From a virus: 64,000 nt of DNA. A program made the position numbers and the translations under genes. The stretch lies in the IMG/VR virus record IMGVR_UViG_3300024262_000019, positions 1 to 64,000 of that record. The stretch is one strand, 5' to 3'. This document shows positions 5,687 through 47,791 of this stretch, in pieces. The first letter of the stretch is position 1; every line of letters begins with the position of its first letter. Below the pieces are notes generated by a model. It saw only the letters and a program-made list of their open reading frames with translations. It made no database searches and was not told the DNA's origin.

Positions 5687-7642
5687 CTAGTTCTCCACGT
5701 AAGTCATAAGGCAACCGTAGAACCTGAAGTTAGTCACTCCGGTATTCTGAGTGCGGACATGTATGAAATACGACTTGCCAGACTCAAGTATGTTCGTAGC
5801 CGCATTGAAGCTTATACTAGTAAGATTCATGGACTGTTCAGCAGCAGTTGATGTCGCTGCGATATCAGACTTAGATGAAATCGTTGTTGTCGGTGGTATC
5901 TGTTCATATAAAACGGCTTCCCATGGGGACGTCGAGCTGGCATAGACATCTATTCTTGCGGTTAACAGCTCATCGCCAACCTTAAGAAATCCAGATACAG
6001 GTATTATTGCAGCCTGTTTTATGCCACCAAACCAGCTATTGAAGTACCCTGGGTAGACATCAGAGTCGGCCTGGTCTGCGCCTGGGCCATTCAGATTCTC
6101 TACGTGCTGAGCACCTGACGATGGAATATAGATCTCCCGTTGTATCCCGGCGGTAGCCGCCACCCATGCACCGTCACCCCAGGAATTCGTGCCTGGAATC
6201 TGCGACTGATTACCATAGGATGTATTCGTTAGATTGTAGCGAGAGGCTGCAACACCGTTGACATCCTTGGTCCAGAGGTTCGAAGTGTTGTCCCATTTTG
6301 CATTCACCGTCTCAACCAGTTGCCCGGTCGGTGACACATACTTTCGATAACCCATACTCCCAGGAGGAAGTGACTGCCACACCAGCGTGTACTCAATGCC
6401 GCCTGCGATACTTGGAACAGCAACGATACGAGGTATCACTATGCCTGGGGTTGCTGTCGTTGGATCTCTCGATTCGACGACTAAGTCAGTGCCATCGTAC
6501 GACAGCTTGGCTGCATCAATACCAAGAGGGCGGTTACCTACGAACAGGGAGTCTGTGAGGACTTCTCCAGATATTGAACTGTTGATGACAAACCAATCCT
6601 CGGCATTTACTTCATACCAAGATCTAATATTGTCAATCCTGTGGCATACACCTGGAGCGGCATATGTTCCAGAGGTAATAACTTTGACTGTTTTTAAGAC
6701 AGTCATATTTGCCGGTATCACCGTCACGCCATCGAAACCTACAAAAGATCCGTCAACGGCGTTGATATCGAAACTTAGGTCCACATCCGTATCAGATCCG
6801 CCAGCCTTATCCTCGAACGAAAGCCTAACAACGCCAGTTGGCGTACCTGTCGCCGCCTGAAGAACTCGCTTGTAAAAGGCTACGCGAATCTGCCTTCCAG
6901 GCGTTACGGCCAGGTATAGAGTCTGAGTTGCCGTGGCAATACATGTACCGGCAGAGGCTGAAACAAGCTCTAGGCTCTTGTCTCCACTCTGAGAATCAGT
7001 GTCCGATGGGGTGTAGCTAAAGTTTGCATTATCCGTAGATGTCTCCCAGAACGGAGACGCATGAGCGAACGTCTCGCCGATATCACCAAGCTCAAAACCA
7101 CCATTCTTGATTATCGGGTTCCATGGCACAGACTCTGCGGCACGATTAAGAAACGAAACGTCTCTCCCGTCATGATTGATATTGATAGCCGGTATGATTC
7201 CAGAAGCAGATCTGGTTACCGTACCAAGCACAACAAGACCAAGACGCTGCGCACTGGTAAGTGAGTCGAACTCAGCCTGAGTGTATCCCTGAAACTCAGC
7301 AGCCGTATCGACGCCAACTGAATACCCAGCGGACGCAGCTATAGTAATTACCTCTCCGCTAATGAATGAAGAGAGATCGAATGTAAACCGTCCAGCGAGA
7401 CGGTCTCGATACGAGATTGAGTACCCATCCTCTGTTTCGAAGACAGCAACATGGTCGCCATTGACAGCATCCTCTGCAACATCAACAGACAGGTCTACGG
7501 CACTAACCTCAAGCCTGAGACCACGGTAGACGCCTGCTGGCATGATAGCCGCGAACTTACGGTTCAGCGCCTCGGAGGCGTACGGCTCCCGCCAGCGAGT
7601 GGTAATCGCCGTGCTAGATATTGTACTTAAGGTAGTCGGCAT
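5687..7642 (-). CDS. putative tail fibre/receptor-binding protein, paralogue 1 of 3
   Basis: 651 aa; RWREPYASEALNRK..PAGVYRGL N-terminus, KNGGFE domain, conserved YRKYVSP module. Confidence 0.75.
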   Translation of the reverse strand: MPTTLSTISSTAITTRWREPYASEALNRKFAAIMPAGVYRGLRLEVSAVDLSVDVAEDAVNGDHVAVFETEDGYSISYRDRLAGRFTFDLSSFISGEVITIAASAGYSVGVDTAAEFQGYTQAEFDSLTSAQRLGLVVLGTVTRSASGIIPAININHDGRDVSFLNRAAESVPWNPIIKNGGFELGDIGETFAHASPFWETSTDNANFSYTPSDTDSQSGDKSLELVSASAGTCIATATQTLYLAVTPGRQIRVAFYKRVLQAATGTPTGVVRLSFEDKAGGSDTDVDLSFDINAVDGSFVGFDGVTVIPANMTVLKTVKVITSGTYAAPGVCHRIDNIRSWYEVNAEDWFVINSSISGEVLTDSLFVGNRPLGIDAAKLSYDGTDLVVESRDPTTATPGIVIPRIVAVPSIAGGIEYTLVWQSLPPGSMGYRKYVSPTGQLVETVNAKWDNTSNLWTKDVNGVAASRYNLTNTSYGNQSQIPGTNSWGDGAWVAATAGIQREIYIPSSGAQHVENLNGPGADQADSDVYPGYFNSWFGGIKQAAIIPVSGFLKVGDELLTARIDVYASSTSPWEAVLYEQIPPTTTISSKSDIAATSTAAEQSMNLTSISFNAATNILESGKSYFIHVRTQNTGVTNFRFYGCLMTYVEN

Positions 7643-8130: not shown

Positions 8131-11100
8131 CTAAACAGGCGTTACCTGAACCTCTATATCGTCAACGTACCAGCCTTCGCCAGTGCCAGCACCCGATGCA
8201 GCACCTGCGGTATCGAATACGAACTCTAGATGATAGTTATCGTCGGCAACAACCATTGCCTGAATATCCTCGCTATATGTCGTGATAGATCCATTTGTTC
8301 CGGTGCCATCCAGACCGAGGGATGCCTTGCCAATCGTGTAGAACAGGCCAGCACCCTTGAAGACTTCCACTCGGACCAGGTCATTTACTAGTCCGGATCG
8401 CATATCTCCGTAGTGCCTAAATCTGATAACCACAGCCGTGTCGGTAGCCAGTAGGCCAAACGCCGGTGATATCAATCTGGACACGGTAGCTATTGCAACC
8501 CCGTCGTAATCGGGGGCAACTGCTCCACCATCACCGAGCCTGCCAACGTCATTCTGACCATAGTTAAATGACTTGAACTGCGTGGACGATCTGTACTCAG
8601 TGATGTGCCACAAGCCAGATGCCGTCCATGTTCCAGCGATAAGAGGATCTGCCCCCGCCAGGTACTCCTCTAAGACATTCTCATTAGTGATGGTAACCTC
8701 GGAGGTGGCTATAATCGGTGCGCTATCTACAGGGATTAGGTCGGCAGGGAATTCATCCTCGTCGAAGTAAGCGGTATACAGCGCATCGTCTGCAGCATAT
8801 TCACTAGACGAAGAGGAAGCCGACATAGCCCATGACGCCAGAGCTGGGCCTGGGTCATAGACGAATGCAGCAATGCGAACATGCCCAGGAATCATCTGCT
8901 CCAGGCGAATGATTAGCCGACTAAGCGCATCACCTTCCAGGGCCTCTGGGTAGTCCAATATAGTATCTGGGCTGATCCGAACTAGAATCGAGCTGGCCCT
9001 ACAGAAATTGCAATCAGTTACGATCTCGCATTTCAGGAAGATATTCGCAGCTCCAACCGCCGGCGGATCTGTAGCAATAATAACAAATTGGTAGGTGGTG
9101 CCAGTCGTATTCTCGAATGACTCCAAGTATGAAACTACGCCATCATTATCTATGAACGCCCAGTTGCCGTAGTCACCTAGTACTGGGTCTGTGAAGGTCT
9201 TGGTTATCCTGTAGCGGCGACCAGTGTAGCCAAGAGTCTGCCTGCCAAGATCCTCTACATCCGTACCAATGCCAGCTATCGTAACCGTGTTAGGGGCTAT
9301 GAACTTAAGCGTCTTCCATGTGACAACGCCAGCCCCAAGCGATGGCACAACGAAGCTAGCCGTCTCAAAGCTATATGTTGAACTGTCTATCCTCTGGAAA
9401 TTTTCAATAACAAAGGTCGCAGCGGACAGATCAACGAACGAACCTTCCGTACCAAACGAAATGCTCATATCGGCAGCCGAAACTATTACTGTGACACGCT
9501 TGTTCGACCCCTCGTCGGCTGTCTGAGTTGCAGAGAGAACCGTCACAGCCTGCGCTGTACTCGGGAATAGGACATCGGAGCACAATAGATCCATCGGTAT
9601 GGCATCCATGGCAACCTCGTCGAACCTAGGACGCCTTGGATCTACCGTGGTAAATATCGTTCCACTGGTTCCACCCGATGGTTGAGTAACGATAAATCCT
9701 GCATTGGAAACCGTCTCAGACCATGTGAGTACATTCCCCGAGGTTCCGGCTACGGTGTTATTGACCGTAATAAAATCCAGAAGTCCGCCGCCGTTGCTGG
9801 CGCTCAAGAAAAGAGAGGCTGCACCATTAATGCTCGCCACCATAATGGTAGCTACGTCAATTGCAGTGGTTGCTCCGCTGATATCAACAGCGATGTTAGC
9901 CCCCGAGACTCCATTGGGAACTTTGTCGAATTCAAAAACAACAATAGGATTTATTCCATCATCCAGTGTGAAGGTTTCACCGTCTATCAGATTTGAATAT
10001 GGAATCGAAAGGATGCCGCCGGATGCTGTAGTTCCGGATGGAAACGAAAATATAGTACTCGACGGAAGACCTAGCGATATCGACTCGATGATGTTGTAGA
10101 GCGGGCTGGCAGATACAAAGTACCCTGCGTACCTGCCAAGAACACTGTAGCCAAGCTCTGTGCCCTTTACGTCCCAAATCTTGTGCGCACTATTTACATA
10201 CGACCGCTGCAGGAACTCCGGGTCGTTCCTGTCCAATTTTATGCCAACGTCGCTGGCCAGGAAGGAGAGGATGTTCTGAGAATTTATCTCTGCGTCCTCT
10301 GAGGGAGGATCATCTTCTTGTGTATATGTGACTCTTATAGAGTCAGCGTCTATCGCCGCCCCGGTATCGTTGTAGATACGTATCTGCCCAGTTGCAACTG
10401 CTCCTACGGACAGATCTATAATACTAGTGTCCGCCAGGTCACCGCCAGGCCGCCCCTCGTTAGTGAATGACCCAGATTTATCTACGCCACTCTCTTTCCA
10501 ACTAACTGTTACGCGATTATTGGCTATGTTTAGCCCGCCGACGTACGACCCCTCCACATTGAATGCGTAAGGAGGTAGTCGGGACCCGTTGTCGGATAAC
10601 GTACTAGGTGACTCAAATATAAATGCACCCGGCCCACCGCCAGTAGGACTGGTGACAATAAATCCAGCATCAGCAACCGTATCAGACCAGGCTACGTCCC
10701 CTTCGACACCTGTAGCTGGATTCGTAATAGTCACAGTCGCTGAGCCACCGGACAGGTTGCTGGCCACCAAGTTCAAAGGAGTAGCAGCGTTGATCGCAGT
10801 AACCATTGCATCAGCAACGGTGATACCTGATGTTGCAAGGGATATATCAACGGCAATATTGGCACCGGCTCCGTCTGGAACCTTGTCAAACTCAAAGATA
10901 AGTGCAGGATTTACACCGTCATCCAGGGTAAATGTCTCACCATCTATGAGGCTCGCAGAAGCCACGGCGACGATAGTTCCAATGGAAGGAGTTACCGATG
11001 GGTTCTCCTCAAAAGCATATGTTCCAGAGGCGAATGGAATGAACTCGGTACTCGACTGTCCTATGTTTTGGACAATGATGTGCTTACCCGTAGGTGCCAG

Positions 11101-11550
11101 GGTTACCGGATCTGTTGGTGGATCTGTAAATTCAGAGGCCAGCGATGATTTGGATATCTTGCAGATAACGAATCTGAACCCACGAAAGTCAATCAGCGTC
11201 ATCCCGTTACGGAGACCATCAAACCTGTCGCCATCTACGCCGACGCTCATGAACACGCGAGATGTTCCGTCACCTAAGTTCTCAGTCTTAAGAATCGTCT
11301 CAGCCAGGGAGAACGTCTTGTCCGTTGGAGCTATAAGTGGATTCCTGAGCTGATCGTAGTCTCTTATCTTCCGTCGCAGCCCATCCATGGATGGAGCCAG
11401 TCCTTCTAGAAGGGCCCTGAGCGTCCCATTGCCAATAAGCTCATCCTGCTCTCGGTAGACGCTAGGTATCCCATCGACCATGGTCACAAGCGACCACGTC
11501 CACTCTCCGAAGCCACCGGAGCCGAACGCGCCGCCGCCGAACCCTGGCAC
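8131..11550 (-). CDS. baseplate wedge protein (P2 gpI-like core) with inserted domains
   Basis: 1139 aa; IPSVYREQD..LRALL..; LSFLASDVG..QRSYV...IWDVKGT motif; two internal ~115-aa repeats; C-terminal jelly-roll-like GWYVDDIEV. Confidence 0.7.
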   Translation of the reverse strand: MPGFGGGAFGSGGFGEWTWSLVTMVDGIPSVYREQDELIGNGTLRALLEGLAPSMDGLRRKIRDYDQLRNPLIAPTDKTFSLAETILKTENLGDGTSRVFMSVGVDGDRFDGLRNGMTLIDFRGFRFVICKISKSSLASEFTDPPTDPVTLAPTGKHIIVQNIGQSSTEFIPFASGTYAFEENPSVTPSIGTIVAVASASLIDGETFTLDDGVNPALIFEFDKVPDGAGANIAVDISLATSGITVADAMVTAINAATPLNLVASNLSGGSATVTITNPATGVEGDVAWSDTVADAGFIVTSPTGGGPGAFIFESPSTLSDNGSRLPPYAFNVEGSYVGGLNIANNRVTVSWKESGVDKSGSFTNEGRPGGDLADTSIIDLSVGAVATGQIRIYNDTGAAIDADSIRVTYTQEDDPPSEDAEINSQNILSFLASDVGIKLDRNDPEFLQRSYVNSAHKIWDVKGTELGYSVLGRYAGYFVSASPLYNIIESISLGLPSSTIFSFPSGTTASGGILSIPYSNLIDGETFTLDDGINPIVVFEFDKVPNGVSGANIAVDISGATTAIDVATIMVASINGAASLFLSASNGGGLLDFITVNNTVAGTSGNVLTWSETVSNAGFIVTQPSGGTSGTIFTTVDPRRPRFDEVAMDAIPMDLLCSDVLFPSTAQAVTVLSATQTADEGSNKRVTVIVSAADMSISFGTEGSFVDLSAATFVIENFQRIDSSTYSFETASFVVPSLGAGVVTWKTLKFIAPNTVTIAGIGTDVEDLGRQTLGYTGRRYRITKTFTDPVLGDYGNWAFIDNDGVVSYLESFENTTGTTYQFVIIATDPPAVGAANIFLKCEIVTDCNFCRASSILVRISPDTILDYPEALEGDALSRLIIRLEQMIPGHVRIAAFVYDPGPALASWAMSASSSSSEYAADDALYTAYFDEDEFPADLIPVDSAPIIATSEVTITNENVLEEYLAGADPLIAGTWTASGLWHITEYRSSTQFKSFNYGQNDVGRLGDGGAVAPDYDGVAIATVSRLISPAFGLLATDTAVVIRFRHYGDMRSGLVNDLVRVEVFKGAGLFYTIGKASLGLDGTGTNGSITTYSEDIQAMVVADDNYHLEFVFDTAGAASGAGTGEGWYVDDIEVQVTPV
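9670..10986 (-). repeat. two diverged ~350-bp internal repeats (9670-10026 and 10636-10986) in the baseplate gene
   Basis: LIDGETFTLDDG(V/I)NP...FEFDKVP..GANIAVDIS.AT....A..MV..IN.A..W..TV..AGFIVT.P.GG occurs twice, with visible DNA similarity. Confidence 0.9.
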
Positions 11551-11591: not shown

Positions 11592-12050
11592 CTAATTCCC
11601 ACAGATCCTAATTCGAGCCCGGATCCTACTCGTCTCCGTAACCGTGCCACGCAAGCGCTTGCGCAGGTCAACCTTGCCTGAGATCTTCCTCGACGAATCA
11701 ATCACTCCTCGCATCTGCTGGACGGACCTTAACTCACCACGAAGCACAGGAGACCTCCTGATGTATCCCTTGAGGCGAAATATCTGAGTCTCAGGAAGGG
11801 CTGCGGCTGTATCCAGGAAGAAAATCTGAATCACATCTGGGCATTTCCCGATAGATCTGGGAGCTTCTTTCAGAGTCACAGATCCAGCAGACGGATCTGT
11901 TTCAAACCAACCATCGTCGAGATTTCTCTCCATGAGCTGACCGTTTATAAAAACAGCAGTACTTCCAGGACCATAAGGACGCGACACTGTAAAAACAGTG
12001 TTGGCTCCGTCAATGATCCCAGAAGGGACTTCGAACCGAGGACTCGACAT
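11592..12050 (-). CDS. putative virion structural protein (small beta module plus basic tail)
   Basis: G..DGANTVF....Y.PGS..VF.NG module shared with 12092-12319. Confidence 0.65.
   Translation of the reverse strand: MSSPRFEVPSGIIDGANTVFTVSRPYGPGSTAVFINGQLMERNLDDGWFETDPSAGSVTLKEAPRSIGKCPDVIQIFFLDTAAALPETQIFRLKGYIRRSPVLRGELRSVQQMRGVIDSSRKISGKVDLRKRLRGTVTETSRIRARIRICGN
11650..11663. repeat. palindrome CGCAAGCGCTTGCG, copy 1 (intragenic)
   Basis: perfect 14-bp palindrome, also present at 29776-29789 and 41191-41204. Confidence 0.8.
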
Positions 12051-12091: not shown

Positions 12092-12319
12092 CTACTGAGG
12101 GATGTAGTACGCCTGCATCACATCCGTCGGCCTGGGGGGCTCATTCATTAAGATCCGCTTGTTGCCAAGCTCTTTCCATCCATCAGAAAGAGATCCTTCT
12201 CCGACGATGCCATTCACGAACACTCGAACGCTACCAGGAATATAGCTTCGACTGGTCTTGAAAACCATGTTGAAGCCATTCGTAACCCCTGATAACTTCT
12301 CGATAATAGGGAATGACAT
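12092..12319 (-). CDS. putative small virion structural protein
   Basis: 75 aa; paralogue of the N-terminal module of 11592-12050 (SGVTNGFNMVF..Y.PGSVRVFVNG..DGW.E). Confidence 0.65.
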   Translation of the reverse strand: MSFPIIEKLSGVTNGFNMVFKTSRSYIPGSVRVFVNGIVGEGSLSDGWKELGNKRILMNEPPRPTDVMQAYYIPQ

Positions 12320-12327: not shown

Positions 12328-14949
12328 CTACGTCGCCAATTTCTCCAGTTCATCGAAGCGAGACTGGGGAGGCTCAAGGCCACTGACGATCGTAAAGACC
12401 ATCATACCCGGCTTATTCCACTCGTAGATCCCACTATGTAGAGTAATTCCTTCGTTACCCAGGGCTCGACCTAGGCTACTAAAAGCGTAATCGATGTTCT
12501 CCATCGGCACTTCCTCAAGCACATCATCGTGAGCCACGACGATAGCTCCAGCCATATTGGCCTTGTTGAGGTCAAACCCATCGGCCAGGAGAGATCCAGT
12601 CAGGTTCTCTCGAACGGCCTGGCTGATATCCTCCTTCTCCTCCCACTCATCCACCCGAGTCATGCCGAAAATCAGGATGCCATTCCTCAGGACCGACCTA
12701 AAATCAGCCCTGTCAAATGTGTTTCCAGTTACATATACGGTTCCTTTGCGACGAGCGACGAAATAAGTATTTGGAACAACTGGACACCACACCCCCTGCT
12801 TCGCATCAAATTCTCGCACATGCTGCTTCTGAATCTGAGTCGTATGCCTTCGCAGAATCGTCGATATCCATACACCATCCATCTTCGGAATATTGCTTAG
12901 CTTATCAGACTTAGGCTCATACTCGCTCATATCCCTCCAGCGAGATGTTGATGCCCACCCCGATAAAGTACAAAGCATCTGAAAAGCATCAACCCCAGCT
13001 TCTTTTCCAGACGTAAAACATCGCTGACGACCGTCGGTTCCAGCTAGATTCCCATCCCCAAGCCTCATCGACTCCAGCATAATCTTAGCCTGGGAAGATG
13101 TTAGACGGCATGCAACATCTGGCGTCAGAGTTCGCTCAGGAAACAACGCATTCAAAATCTCTGCAGTGGAGCGATCTAGACGCCACACAACCTGACCGCT
13201 CGCCTCCCTGACACCTCGATGGTCGCAGCAATCCAAGCGATTCATGAGGCCATCAATCCTTGCAACCTTGCCCGGATTTGCACGCTCGCTTTGATAGATA
13301 AATGCACGAGCACGATCCCCCGCGTAGGTCCTGTTTTTTTGAAGTTTAATTTCCTTCTCTGGGAATACTTGGCAAGTACCGTCAGTGAGAAACCATCCCA
13401 TCAACTCCACGAAGTCGTCAGTCCAAGGCGAAGATCTTGGACCTATATACGTTCCTGTCCTATGAATTCGGTCATGACCAGACGTTGAAAGATCTTTTGT
13501 AACCTTACATAGATCATTACCCTTGTAGTCAGTCACGAGCCAGCGGTGATCCGGAGTTGCGACAGCGCTCAGTGTGCGAGTCTCGATCTCTACCAATTTA
13601 CCCTCATACTCTGGCCAAAGCTTAAGATCAGTCATACCTTGCCATTCCAATTCACCTGATTCAGCATTCTTGGTGAGCAAGACATCGCCTGGATCTAAAT
13701 CGAACCCCTTAACCCACCCACGCTGAGTCAGTGCCTCCGTTTCTGCATCAAGACAGTTGTATTCACTGTCCTGGGCCGCCAGAAGGTTGAAGGTATGCAG
13801 AATTGCTGCAAAATTCTGGTTCGCAACCGGCCAGAATTTCTTCACCGGCAAGCCTGGGTACAGGTCGTGGATTTTGGCGTTATCGACAATGACCAGAGTG
13901 CTGATCTTATTTGCCTCTACAAGCTCCACAGCCTGCTGCAAGGCCATCCTAGCGTTCGCCTGCACCCTTGAGCCCTCGGTGCGCTTAGGCATCGTCATGA
14001 TGATTCCTAAGTGCTTCTCGATAGGCTTCTCGACATTGGTTGAGTCCCCATACTCCTTCATGGCTTTCAGAAGCACTGGCCATGATCCAGTCCCAGACCC
14101 TCCGCCAGCGCCAACGCAGACAAACATCTGCTCCACGCCCTCGCCCCAGGAGCGCATGAACAAGTCCATAATCTTCTCGTAGCACTCCTTGGCCGCAAGC
14201 CGGCCCTGCTCTGGATCCTTACCAGCCCCACCACGATCCTTGCCGATGACAAGCTTATCCTTGATGGTCAGCGACGATAGATCCTGCTCAGTCGTATTTA
14301 CCGCACAAACCCGGCTATAGCCCATGTCGTAGAACGCCTGAGCTATCCGCCCGCCACCCTGGCCTGCGCCAACAAAAGCCATCTGAACCGCTGCATTGAA
14401 CTTGTCCTTCTTGCCCTCTTTTTTCTTGCCCTGGTACTGTTCAAGATTGGCACCGGGAATATCGATTCCAGTACCAGAGATAGCTGGCTCAGGCGCCTCG
14501 GAAACCAATTGAGCCTCTGGATCTTTGGCTTTCTTTTTCCTCGTAGGAGGAGCGTTGTAGAGAGGATCTGTGAAGTCGGGAAGGTCGTTACTCATTGGTT
14601 CTTCTTTCTCATCCTGCGCGATTACTGGCTCGCGCTTCTCATCGGGAGATTCTCTGGCTGGTGTGAACTTCTTCTGCACCTCAGCAATTCGAGGAGCCTC
14701 GGGAGAGTCCTTTTCATATGGCTGAATGCTAATCCGTATCACATCACGTTGCACTAACTGCTGCAATAGATCTGCTACCTTAAAGCCAGATCGATGAGGC
14801 CACTGGGACTCTATCTGTTCCACGGTGCATACCGCATCAACCGACGCACCGGCGGGTATCGCCAGCATGTGAAATGGCGGTGGAAGGTCCACCCCGCCAA
14901 GCTCACAGATATCCGAAGCTGATATATTTCTTATGGTTACGATTATCAT
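12328..14949 (-). CDS. FtsZ/tubulin-family GTPase (phage tubulin-like) with intein and N-terminal extension
   Basis: VGAGQGGGRIA, AVNT, GAGKDP..G, tubulin signature GAGGGSGTG, IVDN, T7 loop N/TFDRAD, C-terminal IVSGL; interrupted by a 345-aa intein. Confidence 0.9.
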   Translation of the reverse strand: MIIVTIRNISASDICELGGVDLPPPFHMLAIPAGASVDAVCTVEQIESQWPHRSGFKVADLLQQLVQRDVIRISIQPYEKDSPEAPRIAEVQKKFTPARESPDEKREPVIAQDEKEEPMSNDLPDFTDPLYNAPPTRKKKAKDPEAQLVSEAPEPAISGTGIDIPGANLEQYQGKKKEGKKDKFNAAVQMAFVGAGQGGGRIAQAFYDMGYSRVCAVNTTEQDLSSLTIKDKLVIGKDRGGAGKDPEQGRLAAKECYEKIMDLFMRSWGEGVEQMFVCVGAGGGSGTGSWPVLLKAMKEYGDSTNVEKPIEKHLGIIMTMPKRTEGSRVQANARMALQQAVELVEANKISTLVIVDNAKIHDLYPGLPVKKFWPVANQNFAAILHTFNLLAAQDSEYNCLDAETEALTQRGWVKGFDLDPGDVLLTKNAESGELEWQGMTDLKLWPEYEGKLVEIETRTLSAVATPDHRWLVTDYKGNDLCKVTKDLSTSGHDRIHRTGTYIGPRSSPWTDDFVELMGWFLTDGTCQVFPEKEIKLQKNRTYAGDRARAFIYQSERANPGKVARIDGLMNRLDCCDHRGVREASGQVVWRLDRSTAEILNALFPERTLTPDVACRLTSSQAKIMLESMRLGDGNLAGTDGRQRCFTSGKEAGVDAFQMLCTLSGWASTSRWRDMSEYEPKSDKLSNIPKMDGVWISTILRRHTTQIQKQHVREFDAKQGVWCPVVPNTYFVARRKGTVYVTGNTFDRADFRSVLRNGILIFGMTRVDEWEEKEDISQAVRENLTGSLLADGFDLNKANMAGAIVVAHDDVLEEVPMENIDYAFSSLGRALGNEGITLHSGIYEWNKPGMMVFTIVSGLEPPQSRFDELEKLAT
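12721..13755 (-). mobile_element. intein with LAGLIDADG-type endonuclease domain in the tubulin gene
   Basis: block A CLDAETEALTQRGW, block B ATPDHRW, LMGWFLTDG and MRLGDG endonuclease motifs, block F/G VWCPVVPNTYFVARRKG..YVTGN followed by Thr+1. Confidence 0.92.
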
Positions 14950-30221: not shown

Positions 30222-32384
30222 CTACTGACCAACCAATGACTTACTAACGATCTCAGATGTGATGCTAATCGTCCCTCGCGTAACAACCTCAAACTCTCCG
30301 ACTGGAAGGTTTCCGCTCGAATCAATACGTCCTATTGGGCCAACGATGAATATGTTCACATACTCAACACCTTCAATCGCAATGTCGGATGTCTCAGGGG
30401 CGATGGGTGCATATAGCTCAGAGAGCCTCAGGGTTGTCCCAAACGACCGACCACGAAGAACATCAAGTATCGCAGCCTCAACCTGAGATCTGACGGTAGC
30501 CTCATTGTATCCAGTGAGTATACCAACCAGCGCGTTAACATCTGCCGCCACCAACTGATTGGAAGCACCGGTAACCTTAACCACCTGGGTAACCTCCTTG
30601 GCTCCATCCAAGAAAGACTGCAATGACTTCTGTAGCCCATTGGTAGGAACCACATAAAACCCTTCCGAGTCAAAGACCAGAACGGGAACCTCTATAAGGT
30701 TCGACTTGCACTCGCTCGATAGAAACGAATCAACATGAACATCAACGTCGGTAACTAGAGTTCCAATGTCGTTGTCTATGGATTGTACATCTGAATCCAG
30801 TGAAGTAGATGTTGACGATATTGACGTATTGCTTGTGCCGATCGCATCAACGTCTGCGCGAATACCAGCGCGTCTCGTCTCAGCGGTAATGGCATTTGCG
30901 TCTATCGTATCAAGCTCTGTAGTTACAGCTGTGATATTCGACAGCACGGTTGCCGCCTGAGCACCAATCTCAGACTGCCTGGCAAGCGCTTTATTGAGAG
31001 TGTTGATGAGTGCAGTTAGATCTGCAGTGGCTATCTGAGTAGGACTTGCCGTGGGGTATCCACTGAGAGTGGAGGATAGCCCAGTAAGCTCAGTCTGCAA
31101 CGAAGAAGCATTAGCCTGGACGACACCAGCCGCCGTACGGCTGCTCTCGTTGGATGTTCTCGCCGTATTCTCTGCCGTATCTATCTCGGAAATATCAGCA
31201 GCCAAGGCAGTGTCATCCGTTTGTGCGTCTGAAACGGAAGCAGATATAGCAGAGGAACTCGTCCCTATGGAAGAAACCGCTGTGCCTACGGTGGGAACGA
31301 AGCTGTTTGATGTAGCCCTGATGCCTGCCAATCTTGATGCCAGATAGGCATCCTCGGATGAACCACGCACGTTGATAGCTCTGGCTACTGCTATGGCGCC
31401 AAAGACTGGATCTACGAACGACTGTGCCCTGGCTTCGTAATCAGGGAGAGTCACGTTTACATTGCGACTCTTGAAAACGTTTGGAGCATTGGCTTTAATG
31501 CTGCTAACCGTCTCAGGGTCACTGCCGCCGCTAGTTCCGGCTATATTGTTTATGGTGAGGCCGATAGTCTCAAAGCTGACGACCAGAGGCTGAACAGTTC
31601 TGGTGATGGTATCCGCCGTGGCGCCACCATTGACACCGGATGATGCAAAATATGTAACCCGTATCTCCGCACCGTTGGGGGGCACGGCGCCAGCGATACT
31701 GTCTCCAAATGTTACCGCTGGAGGATCATCCGTATACCCAATCTCAAACTGCTCGGTTTCTCCGAATTGAAGAAACTCCTCCTCCGCCCACTCAGATCCG
31801 TCAACCTCGACCACGGTCCTAGATTGCCCGGTCGTGCCGGTGCCAACGATGAACTTACCAGTGGGAACGTTACTGATATCGAACACCTGATTCACGCTAC
31901 CGTCGGAGAAGAACACCTGAATGAGAGTTTCACCCTCCGATGCAGTGAGTGTCTTAGTTGAGGTATCGCCAGGAGGGAACAGAAGGGCTTCCTGGGCTTC
32001 GAATATGAGACCGGCTGGGCCTATGAATTGAAACCCAGCTGGAATAGTTACCGGAAAAGAATGTATTGAGTTCAACGATATTGATAGATCTACACTCGAT
32101 GCGCTGGCTGGCCCAGGCTTATAGCCCAGCTGCCTAGCCCCCCTGGTGGCAGATCCTCTGGTCCTCGACGTAACCAGGAAATTGTCTGTCGCTCTTCTGT
32201 CGAGGTAGAAGGAAAGGGTATCCAATCCAAACGAAAATATATCGACAAGCATGATGCCAAGCGATGACACCGCGAAGTCGTTGTAGACAGCAGCGAATTT
32301 CACCTGGAGACGAGCAAGGATCTCATCCTCGTGCGTATCGAAGTCTAATCCAGCGTATCTTACCCTTGTTAACTGTATAGACAT
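30222..32384 (-). CDS. baseplate wedge protein (T4 gp6/P2 gpJ-like) with long helical insertion
   Basis: Y.GLDFD, DF..SSLG.MLVD, LSFYLDR.A..NFL, ARQLGYKP, FGD...G.VPPNG, GGSDPET, VT..DYE motifs. Confidence 0.88.
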   Translation of the reverse strand: MSIQLTRVRYAGLDFDTHEDEILARLQVKFAAVYNDFAVSSLGIMLVDIFSFGLDTLSFYLDRRATDNFLVTSRTRGSATRGARQLGYKPGPASASSVDLSISLNSIHSFPVTIPAGFQFIGPAGLIFEAQEALLFPPGDTSTKTLTASEGETLIQVFFSDGSVNQVFDISNVPTGKFIVGTGTTGQSRTVVEVDGSEWAEEEFLQFGETEQFEIGYTDDPPAVTFGDSIAGAVPPNGAEIRVTYFASSGVNGGATADTITRTVQPLVVSFETIGLTINNIAGTSGGSDPETVSSIKANAPNVFKSRNVNVTLPDYEARAQSFVDPVFGAIAVARAINVRGSSEDAYLASRLAGIRATSNSFVPTVGTAVSSIGTSSSAISASVSDAQTDDTALAADISEIDTAENTARTSNESSRTAAGVVQANASSLQTELTGLSSTLSGYPTASPTQIATADLTALINTLNKALARQSEIGAQAATVLSNITAVTTELDTIDANAITAETRRAGIRADVDAIGTSNTSISSTSTSLDSDVQSIDNDIGTLVTDVDVHVDSFLSSECKSNLIEVPVLVFDSEGFYVVPTNGLQKSLQSFLDGAKEVTQVVKVTGASNQLVAADVNALVGILTGYNEATVRSQVEAAILDVLRGRSFGTTLRLSELYAPIAPETSDIAIEGVEYVNIFIVGPIGRIDSSGNLPVGEFEVVTRGTISITSEIVSKSLVGQ

Positions 32385-40083: not shown

Positions 40084-41169
40084 TTAGTTCTCTCCCCTGG
40101 GGAGAGGACCGGCATTCAACTTCCGATTTCCTCTTTCTTGGAGCGCAATCTGATACTTCCGCTTGCAGCGGGTCTGAGGAATTGAATCTTGGTACAGCCA
40201 CTGCGCAAGCTCCCGTGAGTGCGCTGCCAACAATTCAATCCTATATCCTAGGAATTCTTTTTCGCCCAAAGTCGTCACATGACTATACAAACGAGGCTCC
40301 CAACCCTGATCTTCCAATTTTCCAATCAGAACGTTTACAAATTCAATACTCGAACATGCATAGTTAGCCCGCAGAGATCCGCCTCGACGCTCCCATCCCC
40401 CGTCGGCATCCCATATTCCTCTCAAAAAATGCGACAGATATATACCTGGAACATCAGGGAACTTCATCGTTGTAGCCTTGGCGCCACCCATACCAAAGCG
40501 ACTACCAAGCTCTCGAACCATTCTCCATGAAGACCACTTGAGGACCCAACAGTTGGCACCCTGGTTATGAGGAGCGGGGCCACGATCATGCTCGATGATC
40601 CTGGCTACTGACCTGCATACATCCTCGGTCCCCGCCAGACTAATCTGCCGCTGCCCAGTCCGATCGTCATCTCGAACGTGACCATCACCAAATAATAATC
40701 CGAGTACCCAGGCACTCTCTTGAGTCCACGTATGAAAGACATCTTCCTTCACACGCATATCTGGAGCCGTAATCTTGCCCCGCTCAACAGCAAGACGAAC
40801 ACCATCCGCTCGACCGCGAATGATCCCCATCTCACTCAGGTGTGTCCTGATCAGCCGACCATCACGTCCAATTGCCTTGGCAATATCGTTCGACGATGCG
40901 CCTGCCTCATACATCTCCTGTATTCTGGCATCATCCTCCACAGATATCGCATTGGAGCGATTCTTGGCCGCCTCACGACAAGATCTTGCTGGTATGCCAC
41001 GGCTCTTCAGCCATCCCCATACCGTACCTGGAGCACGGCCATAGAGCGCACCAAGCTGCACCAGACTGCGCTGTTCAACGACATACAGTCGATGAAGATC
41101 TTCCTTCGTTACTTCCGGCATGAGGTATACCCAATCTACAAGATTCCGAAGATTCATTCCACCGACCAT
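40084..41169 (-). mobile_element. free-standing LAGLIDADG homing endonuclease with N-terminal HTH-like repeats
   Basis: SAWVLGLLFGDG and HFLRGIWDADG motifs; inserted between chaperone and tape measure genes. Confidence 0.85.
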
Positions 41170-44440: not shown

Positions 44441-44923
44441 CTAGTAAGTCGCTTTCCAGCCACAGTCGTTAGTGAGTCCAGCGTCAGCCGTAGTCACGTC
44501 ATACACAAGATCGAAACCAAGATTGGTTACATTGAGAACCCATGTTGCACCGCGTGCGGCAGGGCCATCAGTCTTGTCCAATGTCAGAGTAACAACCGGA
44601 ATGACACCAGTGGGGAAAGGCTCTGGGTATACGACGCCTGTTGTAACAACTGCTACGGCGTTAACGTCGATCCCCGCCTCAAGACCATGCTGCTCCAATG
44701 GGATAGACATCAAGTCTACGTTGTCCGAAGACTGGACAGCGTCAACGCTGACGGTGCCAGCATCAACAAGAGACTTAAGACCACGCATGGAATCAAGCTC
44801 TGCTACAGATCTTTCGATCGTGATGGAATCGTTGGCAGCGCCAGCTGCACCAAGGACCACATAGGCTTCGGTGACAGGGGTGGCTACTGCGGCTAGGTTC
44901 GTTATCGTGACTGCTACACTCAT
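44441..44923 (-). CDS. putative virion structural protein
   Basis: 160 aa, AGGAG RBS, between sheath and tube; C-terminal H-lectin-like beta domain (YPEPF....P.V....NVT..GF). Confidence 0.6.
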   Translation of the reverse strand: MSVAVTITNLAAVATPVTEAYVVLGAAGAANDSITIERSVAELDSMRGLKSLVDAGTVSVDAVQSSDNVDLMSIPLEQHGLEAGIDVNAVAVVTTGVVYPEPFPTGVIPVVTLTLDKTDGPAARGATWVLNVTNLGFDLVYDVTTADAGLTNDCGWKATY

Positions 44924-44959: not shown

Positions 44960-47791
44960 CTAAGCCGTAAGGGTCTTTTGGCTAAATCTAAAGCGAATGA
45001 ATTCGCCAGGACGGTTTGGTGCGATGCCGATATCAACGATGACCTGCCCAAGGTTCGCAACCTCTGGAGGGTTATTGGTTCCATCGCAAATAACGAAGAA
45101 TGCCTGACTTGGCGAAGATCCGGCGAAGTGGCCAGTGCTGAACAGATTTGAAAGGAATCCATCGATGGACGTCTTTATCTGGGCATACAAGCTGGATGTG
45201 ATCGATTCGAATACGAATCCAAATGTTGAATTGAAGATCGACTTCTCAACAAACTGGAACAATCGAACAGCGTTGATGTACCTGAGTACGTCATTCGTTG
45301 AAGACATCGTCCTTACGCCCCAGACAGCTAGTCCAGTCTGAGTCGTATTGATCAATGGGTTGATTCGAACGGGGTAAACCGTATCCCTCTCACCCTTGTC
45401 TGGATCCTTCTCAAGACCAGTAAGGAACCTGAGAGCGCCATCTACTGTGCCGCCAGGTGCTTTACCAACATTCCTGGTCGAATCAGTCCTGGAGTAAATT
45501 CCAGCTACCCATCCGAACGGTGGAACGGTGAGGATTTTGGCAGCGTTAGTTGGATCTGTGACCCGAATCCATGGCCAATACATAGCCGCGAACTTCGTCT
45601 TCCTCGGGAAGGTAATGGTCTTGAAATCCTTTGCCTCCTGAGCGTCGAATCCTTTTGGAGTAGTAAAGATATTGAAAATATCCAAACGTCCTTCGGCGTA
45701 ATCGATTTGGTCACCCATGACAGTCGTATCGCCGGCAAAGTCCGGGATAATCAACTGCATGACTTCGTCGATCCGATCGAGGGCAAACATTCCCCTGCGA
45801 GCAGGCTGAAGAATTGGACTACTGAAGATAGTCCTGTCGAAAGTTCCACCACTTAGCGTTCCATCCGAGCCGCCGGTGAAGACATAGTCAACGCTGGTTG
45901 CGGATGGGGATGCGATGTAATCAACAGTAATGTCTGTAGCTGCAGCCGGTGCATTTGCTCCGGTCAGGAAGTTCAACACCCAGGCACCAGTCGAATTACT
46001 GATGGTGTTTGTCTTGGTGATATCAAGGCCGGTGCCAGTGACATTCCCGTTGACGTCAACAACAAGAGTCCTAAGCGGAAGACCAGACACAGCCTCGTAA
46101 GTTACGACCGCTGAAGTCTTAACTATCGAAGTGTTTGCCAGGGTTCCAGAGAATGCAGCTGTGGTTCCGTCGCCGGAATCCATAACCTCTGCCGTGACGG
46201 CAGTCCCTTTGAGAACAGATGGAACATCAAGAGCACCGGTATCCGTGATGGTCACGAAGTCCGAGTTATCGTTCATGATATCTGGGAAATACAGAGCATC
46301 TCCTGCATCATCGAATACGATCTCTTCGTATGTTTCCTTGACCTCATCTTCGCCGGTGAAGCCGCTAGTCAGGAGAACCGTCACGTCATACTTTGAGTAT
46401 GTTCCAGCGCCAGTGACTGCCTGGGTTCCAGATGTGAAATAGTTCTCGTTTCCTGAGATACGCAGCGTGAGACTGTCCGACCAGGAGCCTACGTTATCGG
46501 CGTCCATCTCCCACATGCAGTAGCTGTAATCAACGATTACATCGTTGCCGAGGAAGGGAAGATCCGTGCCGCCGGTAAAGGTTACGCTAATAGCTCCAGT
46601 GGCATAATCAACAGTTCCAGCGACACCGGTGCCACCAGCTGTGGTTGCGGTAAATACGCCAAGTCCATTGTCCGTAACCGTCTGCAGGGCACCGCCTGCT
46701 TCGTAGTCTGCGGTCATAGATAGGGCATCGGGACCGTTGTCGGTTCCAATGGTCCTGGCCGCAAACGTCATAGTCAGAACGCCAGTGTCTCGATCCAGTG
46801 AAGCTGAGGAGATACGAGCAGCATCGGCGCCACCAACAGTGGATACACCGGTGATAGTTGCCGTCTTAACATCGTTGTCCGTACCGCCGGACATGACAGC
46901 CGCGCCGAACGATGTCGTGCCACCGGTCGTAGTGGTAGCAAGCGCGTTGCCAGCCGTGCCACCCAGAAGGGCCCAAACATCTACCGTCGAACCAGGGGTA
47001 ACTACTGCTGCAGCAGCATCAGGGTTGACGACCGTGCCTGTTCCGTAGAGAGATCCAATACCAGTGCCAGCAGTAACGGCGGCAACCAGGTTATTTAGTG
47101 CAGTGGTGTCCGAGGCACCGATAAGGACGCTATTTGCGCCACCGAGCACCGTATTGAACGTGTACGTTACGCTGCCAATCGTGACAGTATCCGTATCCAC
47201 GATTGGACCACCAGACACCGTGAGCAGTTCGGTTGCCTGAATAGACTCTGTCCAGTTCAGGGTAACGAGTGCGTCTGTTAGGGGGAAGGCTGCAAGAGCC
47301 GCACTGACATGGGGACCAACAACGGCTTCGCCGATAGCTGGAGTGAATGTCATCGCTTCGCCTGTGGTTCCACCGGCTGGATCATTGCGCCAACCAACAA
47401 CAACCGACCCCTTGAACAGGGGAACATTGGCCATCGTAGCGCCAAGGGTAACGGTAGCGCCCGTACCAAGGCCAAGGGCCTCGGCTACAACTGGCTCAGT
47501 GACACAGGATTCACCTGCAACCGAGTCGGTTGGGACAACACGAACTACGTACGCCCTGGTCCCACCGTTGGCGAAGAATGCCTGTACGGTAATTGGGACA
47601 CGAGAGTCGTTCGTATACTCACCGAATGTACGAACAAAGTCGTCGTTGCTGGTTATCAGCTTGGCTACGTTGTCTGGACCTCTGCCGGTCCATCCCATTG
47701 TGGCCATTGTTGAGGTTCCAACTGCATCGACCTGTTGGCCGCTGACATTGACTTCCTCAATAAAAATACCCGGTGAAAGAAATTCAGCCAC
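44960..47791 (-). CDS. contractile tail sheath protein with nested inserted domains
   Basis: LSPGIFIEEV, FF.NGG.RAYVVRV, AAMYWPWI, PP.G.VAGI..RTD..R.V.KAP.G, INPL, VWG.RT, YIN..RL, FFV.CD..NN, IG.AP..P.EF. Confidence 0.95.
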   Translation of the reverse strand: MAEFLSPGIFIEEVNVSGQQVDAVGTSTMATMGWTGRGPDNVAKLITSNDDFVRTFGEYTNDSRVPITVQAFFANGGTRAYVVRVVPTDSVAGESCVTEPVVAEALGLGTGATVTLGATMANVPLFKGSVVVGWRNDPAGGTTGEAMTFTPAIGEAVVGPHVSAALAAFPLTDALVTLNWTESIQATELLTVSGGPIVDTDTVTIGSVTYTFNTVLGGANSVLIGASDTTALNNLVAAVTAGTGIGSLYGTGTVVNPDAAAAVVTPGSTVDVWALLGGTAGNALATTTTGGTTSFGAAVMSGGTDNDVKTATITGVSTVGGADAARISSASLDRDTGVLTMTFAARTIGTDNGPDALSMTADYEAGGALQTVTDNGLGVFTATTAGGTGVAGTVDYATGAISVTFTGGTDLPFLGNDVIVDYSYCMWEMDADNVGSWSDSLTLRISGNENYFTSGTQAVTGAGTYSKYDVTVLLTSGFTGEDEVKETYEEIVFDDAGDALYFPDIMNDNSDFVTITDTGALDVPSVLKGTAVTAEVMDSGDGTTAAFSGTLANTSIVKTSAVVTYEAVSGLPLRTLVVDVNGNVTGTGLDITKTNTISNSTGAWVLNFLTGANAPAAATDITVDYIASPSATSVDYVFTGGSDGTLSGGTFDRTIFSSPILQPARRGMFALDRIDEVMQLIIPDFAGDTTVMGDQIDYAEGRLDIFNIFTTPKGFDAQEAKDFKTITFPRKTKFAAMYWPWIRVTDPTNAAKILTVPPFGWVAGIYSRTDSTRNVGKAPGGTVDGALRFLTGLEKDPDKGERDTVYPVRINPLINTTQTGLAVWGVRTMSSTNDVLRYINAVRLFQFVEKSIFNSTFGFVFESITSSLYAQIKTSIDGFLSNLFSTGHFAGSSPSQAFFVICDGTNNPPEVANLGQVIVDIGIAPNRPGEFIRFRFSQKTLTA

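What the first reader, a model, noticed from the sequence alone, without database searches (positions are those of the whole stretch)
12328..14949. Phage FtsZ/tubulin homologue with an intein inserted in the catalytic T7 loop
Seen: complete tubulin/FtsZ motifs; a 345-aa intein (13755-12721, Cys1 to Gly-Asn, Thr+1) splits DSEYN/TFDRADF, which aligns by eye with the FtsZ T7 loop NxDxAD. Known: the T7 loop contacts the next subunit and drives GTP hydrolysis; inteins favour conserved active-site motifs, mostly in replication, nucleotide-metabolism and packaging proteins; PhuZ/TubZ tubulins position DNA and move capsids in large phages. Inference: the unspliced precursor cannot form normal filaments, so splicing could gate filament assembly. 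A cytoskeletal intein host is unusual. The penultimate residue is Gly rather than the usual His.
Basis: partly seen in the sequence, partly recalled or inferred. Interest (0 to 1): 0.8.

Follow-up and report, generated by a model that had tools for sequence, protein, structure and literature searches.

The report
Mobile intein splitting a phage tubulin
An uncultured contractile-tailed phage encodes a tubulin/FtsZ-like filament protein whose catalytic T7 loop is interrupted by a self-splicing, mobile protein element (an intein); I found no earlier report of an intein in any tubulin-family protein, and relatives of this phage tubulin also carry inteins in their two other GTP-binding loops.

Summary
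ORF 12328-14949 (-) encodes an 873-aa tubulin/FtsZ-superfamily precursor. A 345-aa insert (13755-12721) lies between N398 and T744. Intein-free relatives, with a GTPase core up to 98% identical, read ...SEYN-TFDRAD... without a break.

Profile alignment to M. jannaschii FtsZ and an AlphaFold model both place the junction in the H7-H8 (T7) loop, 3 and 6 residues before the two catalytic Asp.

The insert models confidently as a HINT splicing domain plus a LAGLIDADG endonuclease, and all splicing residues are conserved. The penultimate Gly is normal for this intein family, which lives mainly in family-A DNA polymerases.

Among near-identical exteins the intein is patchy (at least 5 gains or losses), and its GC3 is 15 points lower than the exteins'. 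This points to a selfish homing element, not a needed regulator of filament assembly.

New here: related phage tubulins carry unrelated, canonical inteins in the T4 signature (8 representatives) and the T1 loop (1).

I found no publication on tubulin/FtsZ inteins. I rate it a new member of a known kind, of moderate interest.

The parts
12328..14949 (-). Whole precursor gene, 873 codons plus the stop at 12328-12330. The start at 14949 is supported because residues 1-27 are conserved in homologues.
13756..14949 (-). N-extein, aa 1-398: N-terminal domain of unknown fold (aa 1-95), disordered Pro/Lys/acid-rich linker (about aa 96-185), and the GTPase domain up to the first half of the T7 loop
13858..14379 (-). 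Tubulin/FtsZ GTPase domain (Pfam PF00091, aa 191-364)
14347..14370 (-). T1 loop GAGQGGGR (aa 194-201). This is the site of a different intein in relative P0112.
14083..14112 (-). T4 tubulin signature GAGGGSGTGS (aa 280-289). This is the site of different inteins in relatives P0045, P0103, P0118, P0135, P0193, P0205, P0206 and P0246.
13756..13776 (-). N-side of the T7 loop, AQDSEYN (aa 392-398); N398 is the -1 residue
12721..13755 (-). Intein, 345 aa (aa 399-743). The HINT splicing domain is in two parts around a LAGLIDADG endonuclease.
13726..13755 (-). Intein block A, CLDAETEALT; Cys1 = C399, invariant in 44 family members
13540..13557 (-). Intein block B, TPDHRW: T465 (B:7), H468 (B:10), W470 (B:12, the W of the WCT triplet)
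   Evidence: PMC5050341 for the positions
13375..13404 (-). First LAGLIDADG motif, LMGWFLTDGT, with the invariant catalytic Asp (intein D125 = aa 523)
13048..13068 (-). Second LAGLIDADG motif, MRLGDGN, with the invariant catalytic Asp (intein D234 = aa 632)
12754..12792 (-). Intein block F, VWCPVVPNTYFVA; C722 (F:4, the C of WCT) is invariant
12721..12741 (-). Intein block G, TVYVTGN: T741 (G:5, the T of WCT), G742 (penultimate, instead of His), N743 (terminal Asn)
12703..12720 (-). C-side of the T7 loop, TFDRAD (aa 744-749): T744 is the +1 nucleophile; D746 and D749 align with FtsZ catalytic D235/D238 (M. jannaschii numbering)
12331..12720 (-). C-extein, aa 744-873: rest of T7, H8 and the TubZ-like C-terminal (activation) domain (PF22453, aa 744-858)

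Best explanation
The gene encodes a divergent phage tubulin/FtsZ-superfamily GTPase. It is roughly as distant from TubZ/RepX as from FtsZ and CetZ, and it is not PhuZ. It is invaded by a mobile intein of the family 'CLDAETEALT...[VI]TGN|T'.

Translation gives an 873-aa precursor in which a 39-kDa HINT + LAGLIDADG module sits inside the T7 loop, between N398 and T744. The intein then excises itself. Cys399 most likely starts the reaction (a class-1-type route), helped by the block B Thr/His and by the Trp-Cys-Thr triplet. Thr744 takes over the N-extein, Asn743 cyclises, and the native N398-T744 bond forms. This restores the loop ...SEYNTFDRAD... and yields a 528-aa tubulin that can polymerise and hydrolyse GTP.

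The freed intein's LAGLIDADG endonuclease cuts intein-less alleles at the conserved DNA site TACAAC|ACNTTCGAC during co-infection, and recombinational repair copies the intein in (homing).

The intein persists because it sits in a loop the phage cannot change, not because the phage needs it. A precursor cannot present a T7 loop to the next subunit, so slow splicing would be costly. That fits a fast-splicing type with penultimate Gly.

Shown here: the anatomy, the exact insertion point, the fold, residue conservation, the patchy distribution, and the different base composition. Inferred: that splicing and endonuclease cutting actually happen, the route of splicing, and what the tubulin filaments do in the infected cell (by analogy, positioning of phage DNA or particles).
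For: Tubulin identity: Pfam PF00091 and PF22453. Family profile against PDB: RepX 4ei7 1.4e-21, M. jannaschii FtsZ 2e-21. AlphaFold2 core pLDDT about 90, and Foldseek finds CetZ2, TubZ and FtsZ at E about 1e-22 with TM 0.7-0.8.

Exact insertion: intein-free homologues are continuous across N|T.

T7 location.

Intein identity: the AlphaFold2 model has pLDDT 93. Foldseek finds PI-PfuI at 1e-14, the TliVMA intein at 4e-14, PI-SceI at 1e-10, I-DmoI for the endonuclease part and a mini-intein for the HINT part.

Conservation: C1, T67, H70, W72, D125, D234, C324 and N345 are invariant and T343/G344 are at least 90% conserved in 44 sequences. The +1 residue is Thr, Ser or Cys in all of them.

Mobility: the tubulin inteins form one clade (SH-aLRT 100) nested among polymerase inteins. 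On the extein tree the intein needs 6 changes, and at least 5 are forced by well-supported branches; the nearest neighbour of the window's extein is intein-free at 98% core identity. Only 2 of the 80 best IMG/VR loci are occupied. Intein GC3 is 0.449 against 0.595/0.608 in the exteins. Gene order is the same with and without the intein. The target DNA is conserved in empty and occupied alleles.

Penultimate Gly: it is family-wide, and a phage intein with penultimate Gly splices completely while Gly-to-His slows it (PMC5050341, read).
Against: No experiment shows splicing or DNA cutting.

Pfam, NCBIfam and a PDB sequence search do not recognise the insert as an intein above threshold. The only hit is Hint_2 at E 0.011-0.035, so intein identity rests on motifs, alignment and a predicted fold.

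The canonical penultimate His is absent.

The WCT triplet together with Cys1 leaves the chemical route open. I could not read the follow-up study on such inteins.

Gains could not be told from precise losses, and the direction polymerase-to-tubulin rests on an unrooted tree.

Confidence: 0.82

Rival explanations
1. Conditional splicing as a switch. The precursor is held unspliced, for example by a Cys399-Cys722 disulfide or another cue. It cannot polymerise, or it caps filament ends, so splicing times or limits filament assembly during infection.
For: The insert is in the loop that completes the neighbouring subunit's GTPase site, so precursor and product must differ in assembly. Two invariant Cys (C1 and F:4) lie in the active centre. 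Redox-sensitive splicing is reported for a mycobacterial DnaB intein that also scores for class-3/WCT terms (PMC6195587, abstract and term counts seen). Kelley et al. argue that the penultimate residue tunes splicing rate in phages (PMC5050341). Three catalytic loops of this tubulin clade are occupied by inteins.
Against: Sister phages with 98-100% identical extein cores lack the intein, and presence is patchy. Only 2 of the 80 best IMG/VR loci carry it. The same intein family sits in DNA polymerases and other proteins, with no link to filaments. The endonuclease active site is conserved, which selection for mobility explains. Inteins target conserved catalytic loops for selfish reasons (PMC4760082).
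Confidence: 0.12
2. Same intein, different chemistry. It splices by the class-3 route, in which the block F Cys (C722) attacks the N-terminal junction and Cys399 is dispensable.
For: Trp at B:12, Cys at F:4 and Thr at G:5 are all present and invariant or nearly so, with the spacing that defines the WCT triplet (PMC5050341; PMC7664689). The +1 residue is Thr, as in nearly all class-3 inteins (PMC2807308). A class-3 split intein (6zgq) was the one mini-intein among the listed structural matches to the HINT part. Class-3 inteins are proposed to come from phages (cited in PMC5050341).
Against: Class 3 is defined by the lack of a Cys/Ser at position 1 (PMC2807308; PMC7664689; PMC5050341). Here Cys1 is invariant in 44 sequences that are only 35-77% identical, which argues that it is used. 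Grafting WCT onto a class-1 intein did not produce class-3 splicing (PMC7664689).
Confidence: 0.3
3. A dead or domesticated insert. The HINT/LAGLIDADG module no longer splices, and the gene is either a pseudogene or makes a tubulin with a permanent extra domain.
For: No penultimate His. No family model recognises the insert above threshold.
Against: Every splicing residue and both endonuclease Asp are conserved across nine tubulin alleles that are 68-77% identical in the intein. The exteins stay under strong conservation. A 39-kDa domain inside T7 would block the longitudinal contact that defines the family.
Confidence: 0.04
4. Assembly artefact. The insert is a chimeric join of a polymerase intein into a tubulin gene.
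For: The intein's closest non-tubulin relatives are in DNA polymerases. The record is a metagenomic contig.
Against: The same in-frame junctions occur in 9 protein clusters and on independent contigs of 82-194 kb from different samples. The tubulin inteins form their own well-supported clade.
Confidence: 0.01

Closest known systems
Mycobacteriophage Bethlehem gp51 (RDF) intein: a class-1 phage intein with a LAGLIDADG endonuclease and penultimate Gly (PMC5050341)
   Same: It is a phage-borne, full-size intein with Cys1, penultimate Gly and terminal Asn, inserted in a conserved site. It was shown to splice fully without the penultimate His.
   Different: The host protein differs (metallophosphoesterase-like RDF against tubulin). 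No sequence similarity between the two was established here. That intein was not described as carrying the WCT triplet.
Class-3 inteins, e.g. the mycobacteriophage Bethlehem DnaB intein and the Mycobacterium chimaera DnaB1 intein (PMC2807308, PMC7664689)
   Same: Trp (B:12), Cys (F:4) and Thr (G:5) with the same His-x-Trp spacing; Thr at +1; association with phages.
   Different: Class-3 inteins lack a nucleophile at position 1, whereas this family keeps an invariant Cys1. The Bethlehem DnaB intein has a penultimate His; here it is Gly. Only three WCT inteins starting with Ser or Cys were known in 2009, and their route was left open in that paper.
Inteins of family-A DNA polymerases of uncultured phages (P0046-P0084), at the site ...N|TP[IV]QG
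   Same: Same intein family (35-54% identity over all 345 residues), same block A, same ...TGN end, same -1 Asn and +1 Thr/Ser.
   Different: The host and site differ. The tubulin copies form a separate clade.
PI-PfuI, PI-SceI and the Thermococcus litoralis VMA intein (PDB 1dq3, 1vde, 7qsu)
   Same: Predicted two-domain architecture: a HINT splicing domain around a LAGLIDADG endonuclease (Foldseek E 1e-14 to 1e-10).
   Different: 8-15% sequence identity. They are archaeal or yeast inteins with a penultimate His and other hosts (ribonucleotide reductase, V-ATPase).
TubZ/RepX of Bacillus plasmids (PDB 4ei7, 2xka), FtsZ (1w5a) and CetZ (4b45), as relatives of the extein
   Same: Tubulin/FtsZ fold; T1, T4 and T7 (N-x-D-x-x-D-like) loops; TubZ-like C-terminal domain.
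   Different: 19-25% identity. Extra N-terminal domain and linker. One extra residue in T7 (N-T-F-D-R-A-D). No TubR/tubC partner recognised next to it. It fails the FtsZ equivalog cut-off (99 against 295 bits). PhuZ is more distant (BFVD E 2e-11).
Inteins in dynein and kinesin of Anaeramoeba (PMC10710043)
   Same: They are the only earlier report I found of inteins in 'cytoskeleton'-category proteins, also at conserved sites.
   Different: Those hosts are eukaryotic motor ATPases, not filament-forming tubulin-family GTPases, and not phage proteins.

Membership tests
Intein (HINT-domain protein-splicing element) | In-frame insert whose removal restores a continuous, conserved host sequence | tested here: met
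   Intein-free homologues read DSEYNTFDRAD without a gap; 9 alleles carry the insert at the same bond
Intein (HINT-domain protein-splicing element) | Block A nucleophile at position 1 (Cys/Ser) | tested here: met
   Cys399, invariant in 44 sequences
Intein (HINT-domain protein-splicing element) | Block B Thr-x-x-His | tested here: met
   T465-P-D-H468, both invariant
Intein (HINT-domain protein-splicing element) | C-terminal Asn followed by Cys/Ser/Thr at +1 | tested here: met
   N743|T744; Asn is invariant and +1 is T, S or C in all 44
Intein (HINT-domain protein-splicing element) | Penultimate His (usual, not obligatory) | tested here: not met
   Gly742. Gly is family-wide, with Lys in a few. 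Precedents that splice without it: PMC5050341; PMC7664689 states that several inteins lack it.
Intein (HINT-domain protein-splicing element) | HINT fold | tested here: met
   AlphaFold2 pLDDT 93; Foldseek finds PI-PfuI, TliVMA, PI-SceI and the mini-intein 6zgq. This is a predicted structure only.
Intein (HINT-domain protein-splicing element) | Match to curated intein family models | tested here: not met
   Only Hint_2 at E 0.011-0.035, below cut-off; no Intein_splicing hit; no NCBIfam or PHROG hit
Intein (HINT-domain protein-splicing element) | Protein splicing activity | not testable with these tools
   Needs expression and product analysis
Class-3 intein | Trp B:12, Cys F:4, Thr G:5 (the WCT triplet) | tested here: met
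   W470, C722 and T741; W and C are invariant and T is at least 90% conserved; positions as defined in PMC5050341
Class-3 intein | No Cys/Ser/Thr nucleophile at position 1 | tested here: not met
   Cys1 is invariant. It is therefore not filed as class 3.
LAGLIDADG homing endonuclease | Two LAGLIDADG motifs, each with a catalytic acidic residue | tested here: met
   ...FLTDG... and ...LGDG...; D125 and D234 are invariant
LAGLIDADG homing endonuclease | Fold | tested here: met
   Foldseek finds I-DmoI at E about 5e-6 over about 190 columns, and the endonuclease parts of PI-PfuI and PI-SceI
LAGLIDADG homing endonuclease | Site-specific cutting of the empty allele | not testable with these tools
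   Indirect support only: patchy distribution and a conserved target site
Tubulin/FtsZ superfamily | GTPase domain with the T1 G-box and the T4 signature GGG[ST]G[ST]G | tested here: met
   PF00091 at 61 bits against a cut-off of 33; motifs at aa 194-201 and 280-289
Tubulin/FtsZ superfamily | T7 loop with two acidic residues after helix H7 | tested here: met
   After splicing the loop reads N-T-F-D-R-A-D. D746 and D749 align with M. jannaschii FtsZ D235/D238; loop position.
Tubulin/FtsZ superfamily | Two-domain fold | tested here: met
   Foldseek E about 1e-22 and TM 0.7-0.82 to CetZ2, TubZ and FtsZ
FtsZ proper | Score above the equivalog cut-off of TIGR00065 | tested here: not met
   99.2 bits against a cut-off of 295.2
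TubZ (type III partition GTPase) | TubZ-like C-terminal domain | tested here: inconclusive
   PF22453 at 27.2 bits against a cut-off of 26. RepX is the best PDB profile hit, but it ties with FtsZ.
TubZ (type III partition GTPase) | Adjacent TubR adaptor gene and tubC repeats | tested here: inconclusive
   The ten neighbouring ORFs scanned gave no Pfam hit, and only tail-fibre or unknown PHROGs hits. No repeat search was run.
PhuZ (tubulin of nucleus-forming jumbo phages) | Closest similarity to PhuZ | tested here: not met
   The N-extein query (aa 184-398) found no phiKZ-like phage in the deposited phage genomes. The BFVD match to PhuZ is E 2e-11 at 14% identity, weaker than the matches to FtsZ, TubZ and CetZ.

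The most novel reading that the evidence does not exclude
The phage tubulin clade has inteins in all three of its GTP-contacting loops (T1, T4, T7). In this reading, at least the T7 intein, with its paired active-site cysteines (Cys1 and Cys F:4), is a conditional switch. The unspliced precursor binds GTP but lacks a T7 face, so it caps or poisons filaments. Splicing responds to the redox or metabolic state of the infected cell and sets when and how long phage filaments grow.
Probability: 0.1. Interest if true: 0.8.

Novelty: new member of a known kind. Interest (0 to 1): 0.55.

Why it matters
Surveys of intein hosts list replication, repair, nucleotide-metabolism and packaging enzymes. One survey of mycobacteriophages found that all intein hosts bind nucleic acid (PMC5050341). 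'Cytoskeleton' was reported as a new host category only in 2023, for dynein and kinesin of one eukaryote (PMC10710043).

A filament-forming tubulin-family GTPase with inteins at T1, T4 and T7 extends the rule 'inteins sit in nucleotide-binding catalytic loops' from P-loop ATPases to the tubulin fold.

It also provides natural precursor/product pairs in which polymerisation competence is created by one self-catalysed reaction. Such pairs are useful for studying phage cytoskeletons and as a design for switchable filaments.

It documents an intein lineage (Cys1 + WCT + penultimate Gly) that has moved between a DNA polymerase motif and a tubulin loop sharing only the Asn|Thr junction. [quoted passage not shown]

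It does not by itself reveal a new mechanism.

Tried and rejected
1. Sequence recognition of the insert as an intein failed. Pfam gave only a sub-threshold Hint_2 hit; NCBIfam and PHROGs gave nothing; a PDB sequence search gave only noise. Identity had to come from motifs, alignment and a predicted fold.

2. I looked for the tubulin in deposited phage genomes. Only the intein part matched, in polymerase, portal, terminase and methylase genes at 25-33% identity. The extein matched only a few FtsZ-like genes at 29-35% identity. The T4-intein relatives matched nothing.

3. A second intein copy in the same 110-kb record: none.

4. Neighbouring genes gave no functional clue.

5. BLASTP gives E 0.44, so this is not supported.

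8. A formal phylogeny against PhuZ, TubZ, FtsZ and CetZ was not built, because no reference sequences were available as files. HMM and Foldseek scores place the family about equally far from TubZ/RepX, FtsZ and CetZ, and farther from PhuZ.

9. The spliced extein itself has no reference in the window, so the intein-free homologue P0011 was folded in its place. P0011 is 88% identical overall and 98% identical in the core.
Full report
**What is there**

The minus-strand ORF 12328..14949 is open for 873 codons.
- Pfam places a Tubulin/FtsZ GTPase domain at aa 191-364 (E 1.8e-16).
- It places a TubZ-like C-terminal domain at aa 744-858, just above its cut-off.
- About 380 residues between the two domains have only a weak Hint-domain hit.

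It begins with Cys, ends Gly-Asn and is followed by Thr. The coordinates are exact.

**The insert is defined by nature, not only by motifs**

A search of 5.8 billion proteins found two sets of close relatives:
- eight further clusters of 741-876 aa with the same insert;
- more than thirty clusters of 502-557 aa without it.

In the alignment, the short forms read ...DSEYNTFDRAD... without interruption. The long forms carry the extra 345-350 residues between that Asn and Thr. The first 27 residues are conserved in the homologues. The start at 14949 is therefore real, although the stored copy of this same protein (P0002, 846 aa) begins only at Met28.

**The host protein**

A profile of 38 intein-free relatives matches solved structures of:
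- RepX/TubZ (4ei7, E 1.4e-21);
- M. jannaschii FtsZ (2e-21);
- other FtsZ, TubZ and CetZ chains.

An AlphaFold2 model of P0011 was used as a stand-in for the spliced product. P0011 is 88% identical overall and 98% identical in the GTPase core. The core has pLDDT about 90. Foldseek finds CetZ2, B. thuringiensis TubZ and FtsZ at E about 1e-22 with TM up to 0.82.

The protein fails the FtsZ equivalog cut-off, with 99 against 295 bits. PhuZ is a weaker structural match, at E 2e-11. With the N-extein (aa 184-398) as query, the deposited phage genomes returned only weak FtsZ-like matches, at 29-35% identity.

It is therefore a member of the tubulin/FtsZ superfamily from a clade known only from metagenomes:
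- 129 related loci in IMG/VR;
- 6199 profile hits among 1.84 billion representatives.

It has an added N-terminal domain (aa 1-95, confidently folded, fold not identified) and a disordered linker. Earlier notes of this scan describe the same clade on other genomes.

**Where the insert sits**

In the profile alignment to M. jannaschii FtsZ:
- ...KDGLIN-VDFADV... pairs with ...kdseyntFDraDy...;
- N398 pairs with N233, D746 with D235, and D749 with D238;
- from my own knowledge, D235 and D238 are the T7 aspartates that complete the GTPase site of the next subunit.

In the model, helix H7 is residues 362-384, the loop is 385-394 and H8 is 395-402. The junction (N391|T392 in P0011) lies in that loop.

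The T7 assignment is therefore supported by two independent lines. I did not do a residue-level superposition on a filament structure.

**The insert is an intein with a homing endonuclease**

Curated models do not recognise it above threshold. However, an AlphaFold2 model built on 44 homologous inserts has pLDDT 93. Foldseek matches it to:
- PI-PfuI (E 1e-14), the T. litoralis VMA intein (4e-14) and PI-SceI (1e-10);
- I-DmoI, for the middle domain;
- a mini-intein, for the splicing domain.

Across those 44 sequences, which are 35-77% identical, the invariant residues are:
- Cys1;
- the block B Thr and His;
- both LAGLIDADG Asp;
- a Trp two residues after the His;
- a Cys in block F;
- the terminal Asn.

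The Thr and Gly just before the Asn are at least 90% conserved. The +1 residue is always Thr, Ser or Cys.

1. The penultimate Gly is a trait of the whole intein family, with Lys in a few members. Phage class-1 inteins often lack the His. One with Gly splices completely, and changing that Gly to His slows it (PMC5050341).
2. Trp at B:12, Cys at F:4 and Thr at G:5 form the 'WCT' triplet that marks class-3 inteins. Those inteins, however, are defined by having no nucleophile at position 1 (PMC2807308, PMC7664689, PMC5050341). This family keeps both.

In 2009 only three WCT inteins starting with Ser or Cys were known, and their route was left open. I could not read the follow-up paper.

Because Cys1 is invariant, I favour a class-1-type start, at about 55:35 (the rest undecided). 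I do not file the intein as class 3.

**Where the intein came from and how it behaves**

- **Relatives.** The nearest relatives outside tubulins (35-54% identity, full length) sit in family-A DNA polymerases, at ...N|TP[IV]QG. A few sit in other proteins. All have Asn at -1 and Thr, Ser or Cys at +1.
- **Intein tree.** The nine tubulin copies form one clade (SH-aLRT 100) among polymerase copies. That fits one jump into the tubulin site. The direction is inferred from an unrooted tree.
- **Extein tree.** The intein needs six changes, and at least five are forced by well-supported branches. The window's nearest neighbour is the intein-free P0011. P0003 and P0004 are almost identical to the intein-free P0021, P0028 and P0029.
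- **Occupancy.** Of the 80 best IMG/VR loci, only L009 (194-kb contig) and L011 (82-kb contig) are occupied.
- **Composition.** The intein's third-position GC is 0.449, against 0.595 and 0.608 in the two exteins.
- **Target and gene order.** The DNA around the site, TACAAC|ACNTTCGAC, is conserved in empty and occupied alleles. The downstream genes are the same with and without the intein.

All this is the signature of a homing element that comes and goes. It is not the signature of a part the phage depends on.

**A wider pattern found on the way**

Among the 150 best representatives of the tubulin profile, nine are long and match in two pieces:
- One is the T7 form.
- Seven of them, plus P0045, carry canonical inteins of 378-548 aa in the T4 signature. 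These have Cys1 ... His-Asn | Ser/Thr, and Pfam recognises the Intein_splicing domain in all eight and LAGLIDADG_3 in seven. The insertion point is GGG|[ST]G.
- One (P0112) carries a 461-aa intein in the T1 loop, at GQGG|SR.

The T4 and T1 inteins are related to one another (21-36% identity). They are not related to the T7 intein (E at least 0.005).

So all three GTP-contacting loops of this phage tubulin clade have been invaded, by at least two intein lineages.

**Context**

The window is the structural module of a contractile-tailed phage:
- portal 62237-63928, protease, and major head protein 56795-58279;
- sheath 44960-47791 and baseplate wedge 30222-32384;
- a fibre-like gene at 5687-7642.

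The record is a 110-kb IMG/VR contig estimated to be 67% complete. It holds no second copy of the intein.

**Literature**

Full-text searches found no native intein in FtsZ, tubulin, TubZ, PhuZ or CetZ.
- The large prokaryotic survey names none (PMC4760082).
- A 2023 paper states that the cytoskeleton category had not been reported as an intein host before dynein and kinesin of Anaeramoeba (PMC10710043).

This is absence within a limited library, not proof.

**Verdict**

It probably over-reads the function: the evidence favours a selfish, efficiently splicing homing intein.

It is a new host family and new insertion sites for a known kind of element, with an unusual mixed set of catalytic residues.

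Noticed in passing
Relatives P0045, P0103, P0118, P0135, P0193, P0205, P0206, P0246 (T4 loop) and P0112 (T1 loop); the equivalent window sites are 14083-14112 and 14347-14370: Related phage tubulins carry canonical LAGLIDADG inteins (Cys1...His-Asn|Ser/Thr, 378-548 aa) in the T4 signature GGG|[ST]G, and one carries an intein in the T1 loop at GQGG|SR. These inteins are related to each other but not to the T7 intein.
   Followed up: yes
window 12092-12319 and 11592-12050 (minus strand): The two small genes just downstream of the tubulin (75 and 152 aa) are paralogues (41% identity, E 9e-16). They keep their place next to the tubulin in L009, L010 and L004. Function unknown; no family hit.
   Followed up: partly
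window 14665-14949 (aa 1-95 of the tubulin): A confidently modelled small N-terminal domain (pLDDT about 90) of unidentified fold, followed by a disordered Pro/Lys/acid-rich linker with a conserved DDLPDFxDPLYN motif. The stored copy of this protein (P0002, 846 aa) starts only at Met28, although residues 1-27 are conserved. BLASTP shows no similarity to the 160-aa protein at 44441-44923 (E 0.44).
   Followed up: partly
P0062, P0065, P0067 (site SPN|TPVP); P0069, P0071 (site GGN|[ST][IV]VPD, one labelled GGDEF by its source); P0066: The same intein family also sits in at least three other host proteins that I did not identify. Every site has Asn at -1 and Thr/Ser at +1, which suggests that the element needs the central AAC|AC(N) bases or the Asn|Thr junction.
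   Followed up: partly
window 40084-41169 (minus strand): A free-standing endonuclease gene with HNH-family matches (phrog_4645, E 1e-20) lies inside the tail gene block. It is a second kind of mobile nuclease in this genome.
   Followed up: no
window 8131-11550 (minus strand, 1139 aa): A large fibre-like protein contains an internal repeat of about 100 aa (two copies beginning ...LIDGETFTLDDG[VI]NP...FEFDKVP...). It has no family hit. It is conserved downstream of the tubulin in L009 and L010.
   Followed up: no
P0224 (812 aa): One member of the tubulin clade is fused to an N-terminal group-1 glycosyltransferase domain.
   Followed up: no
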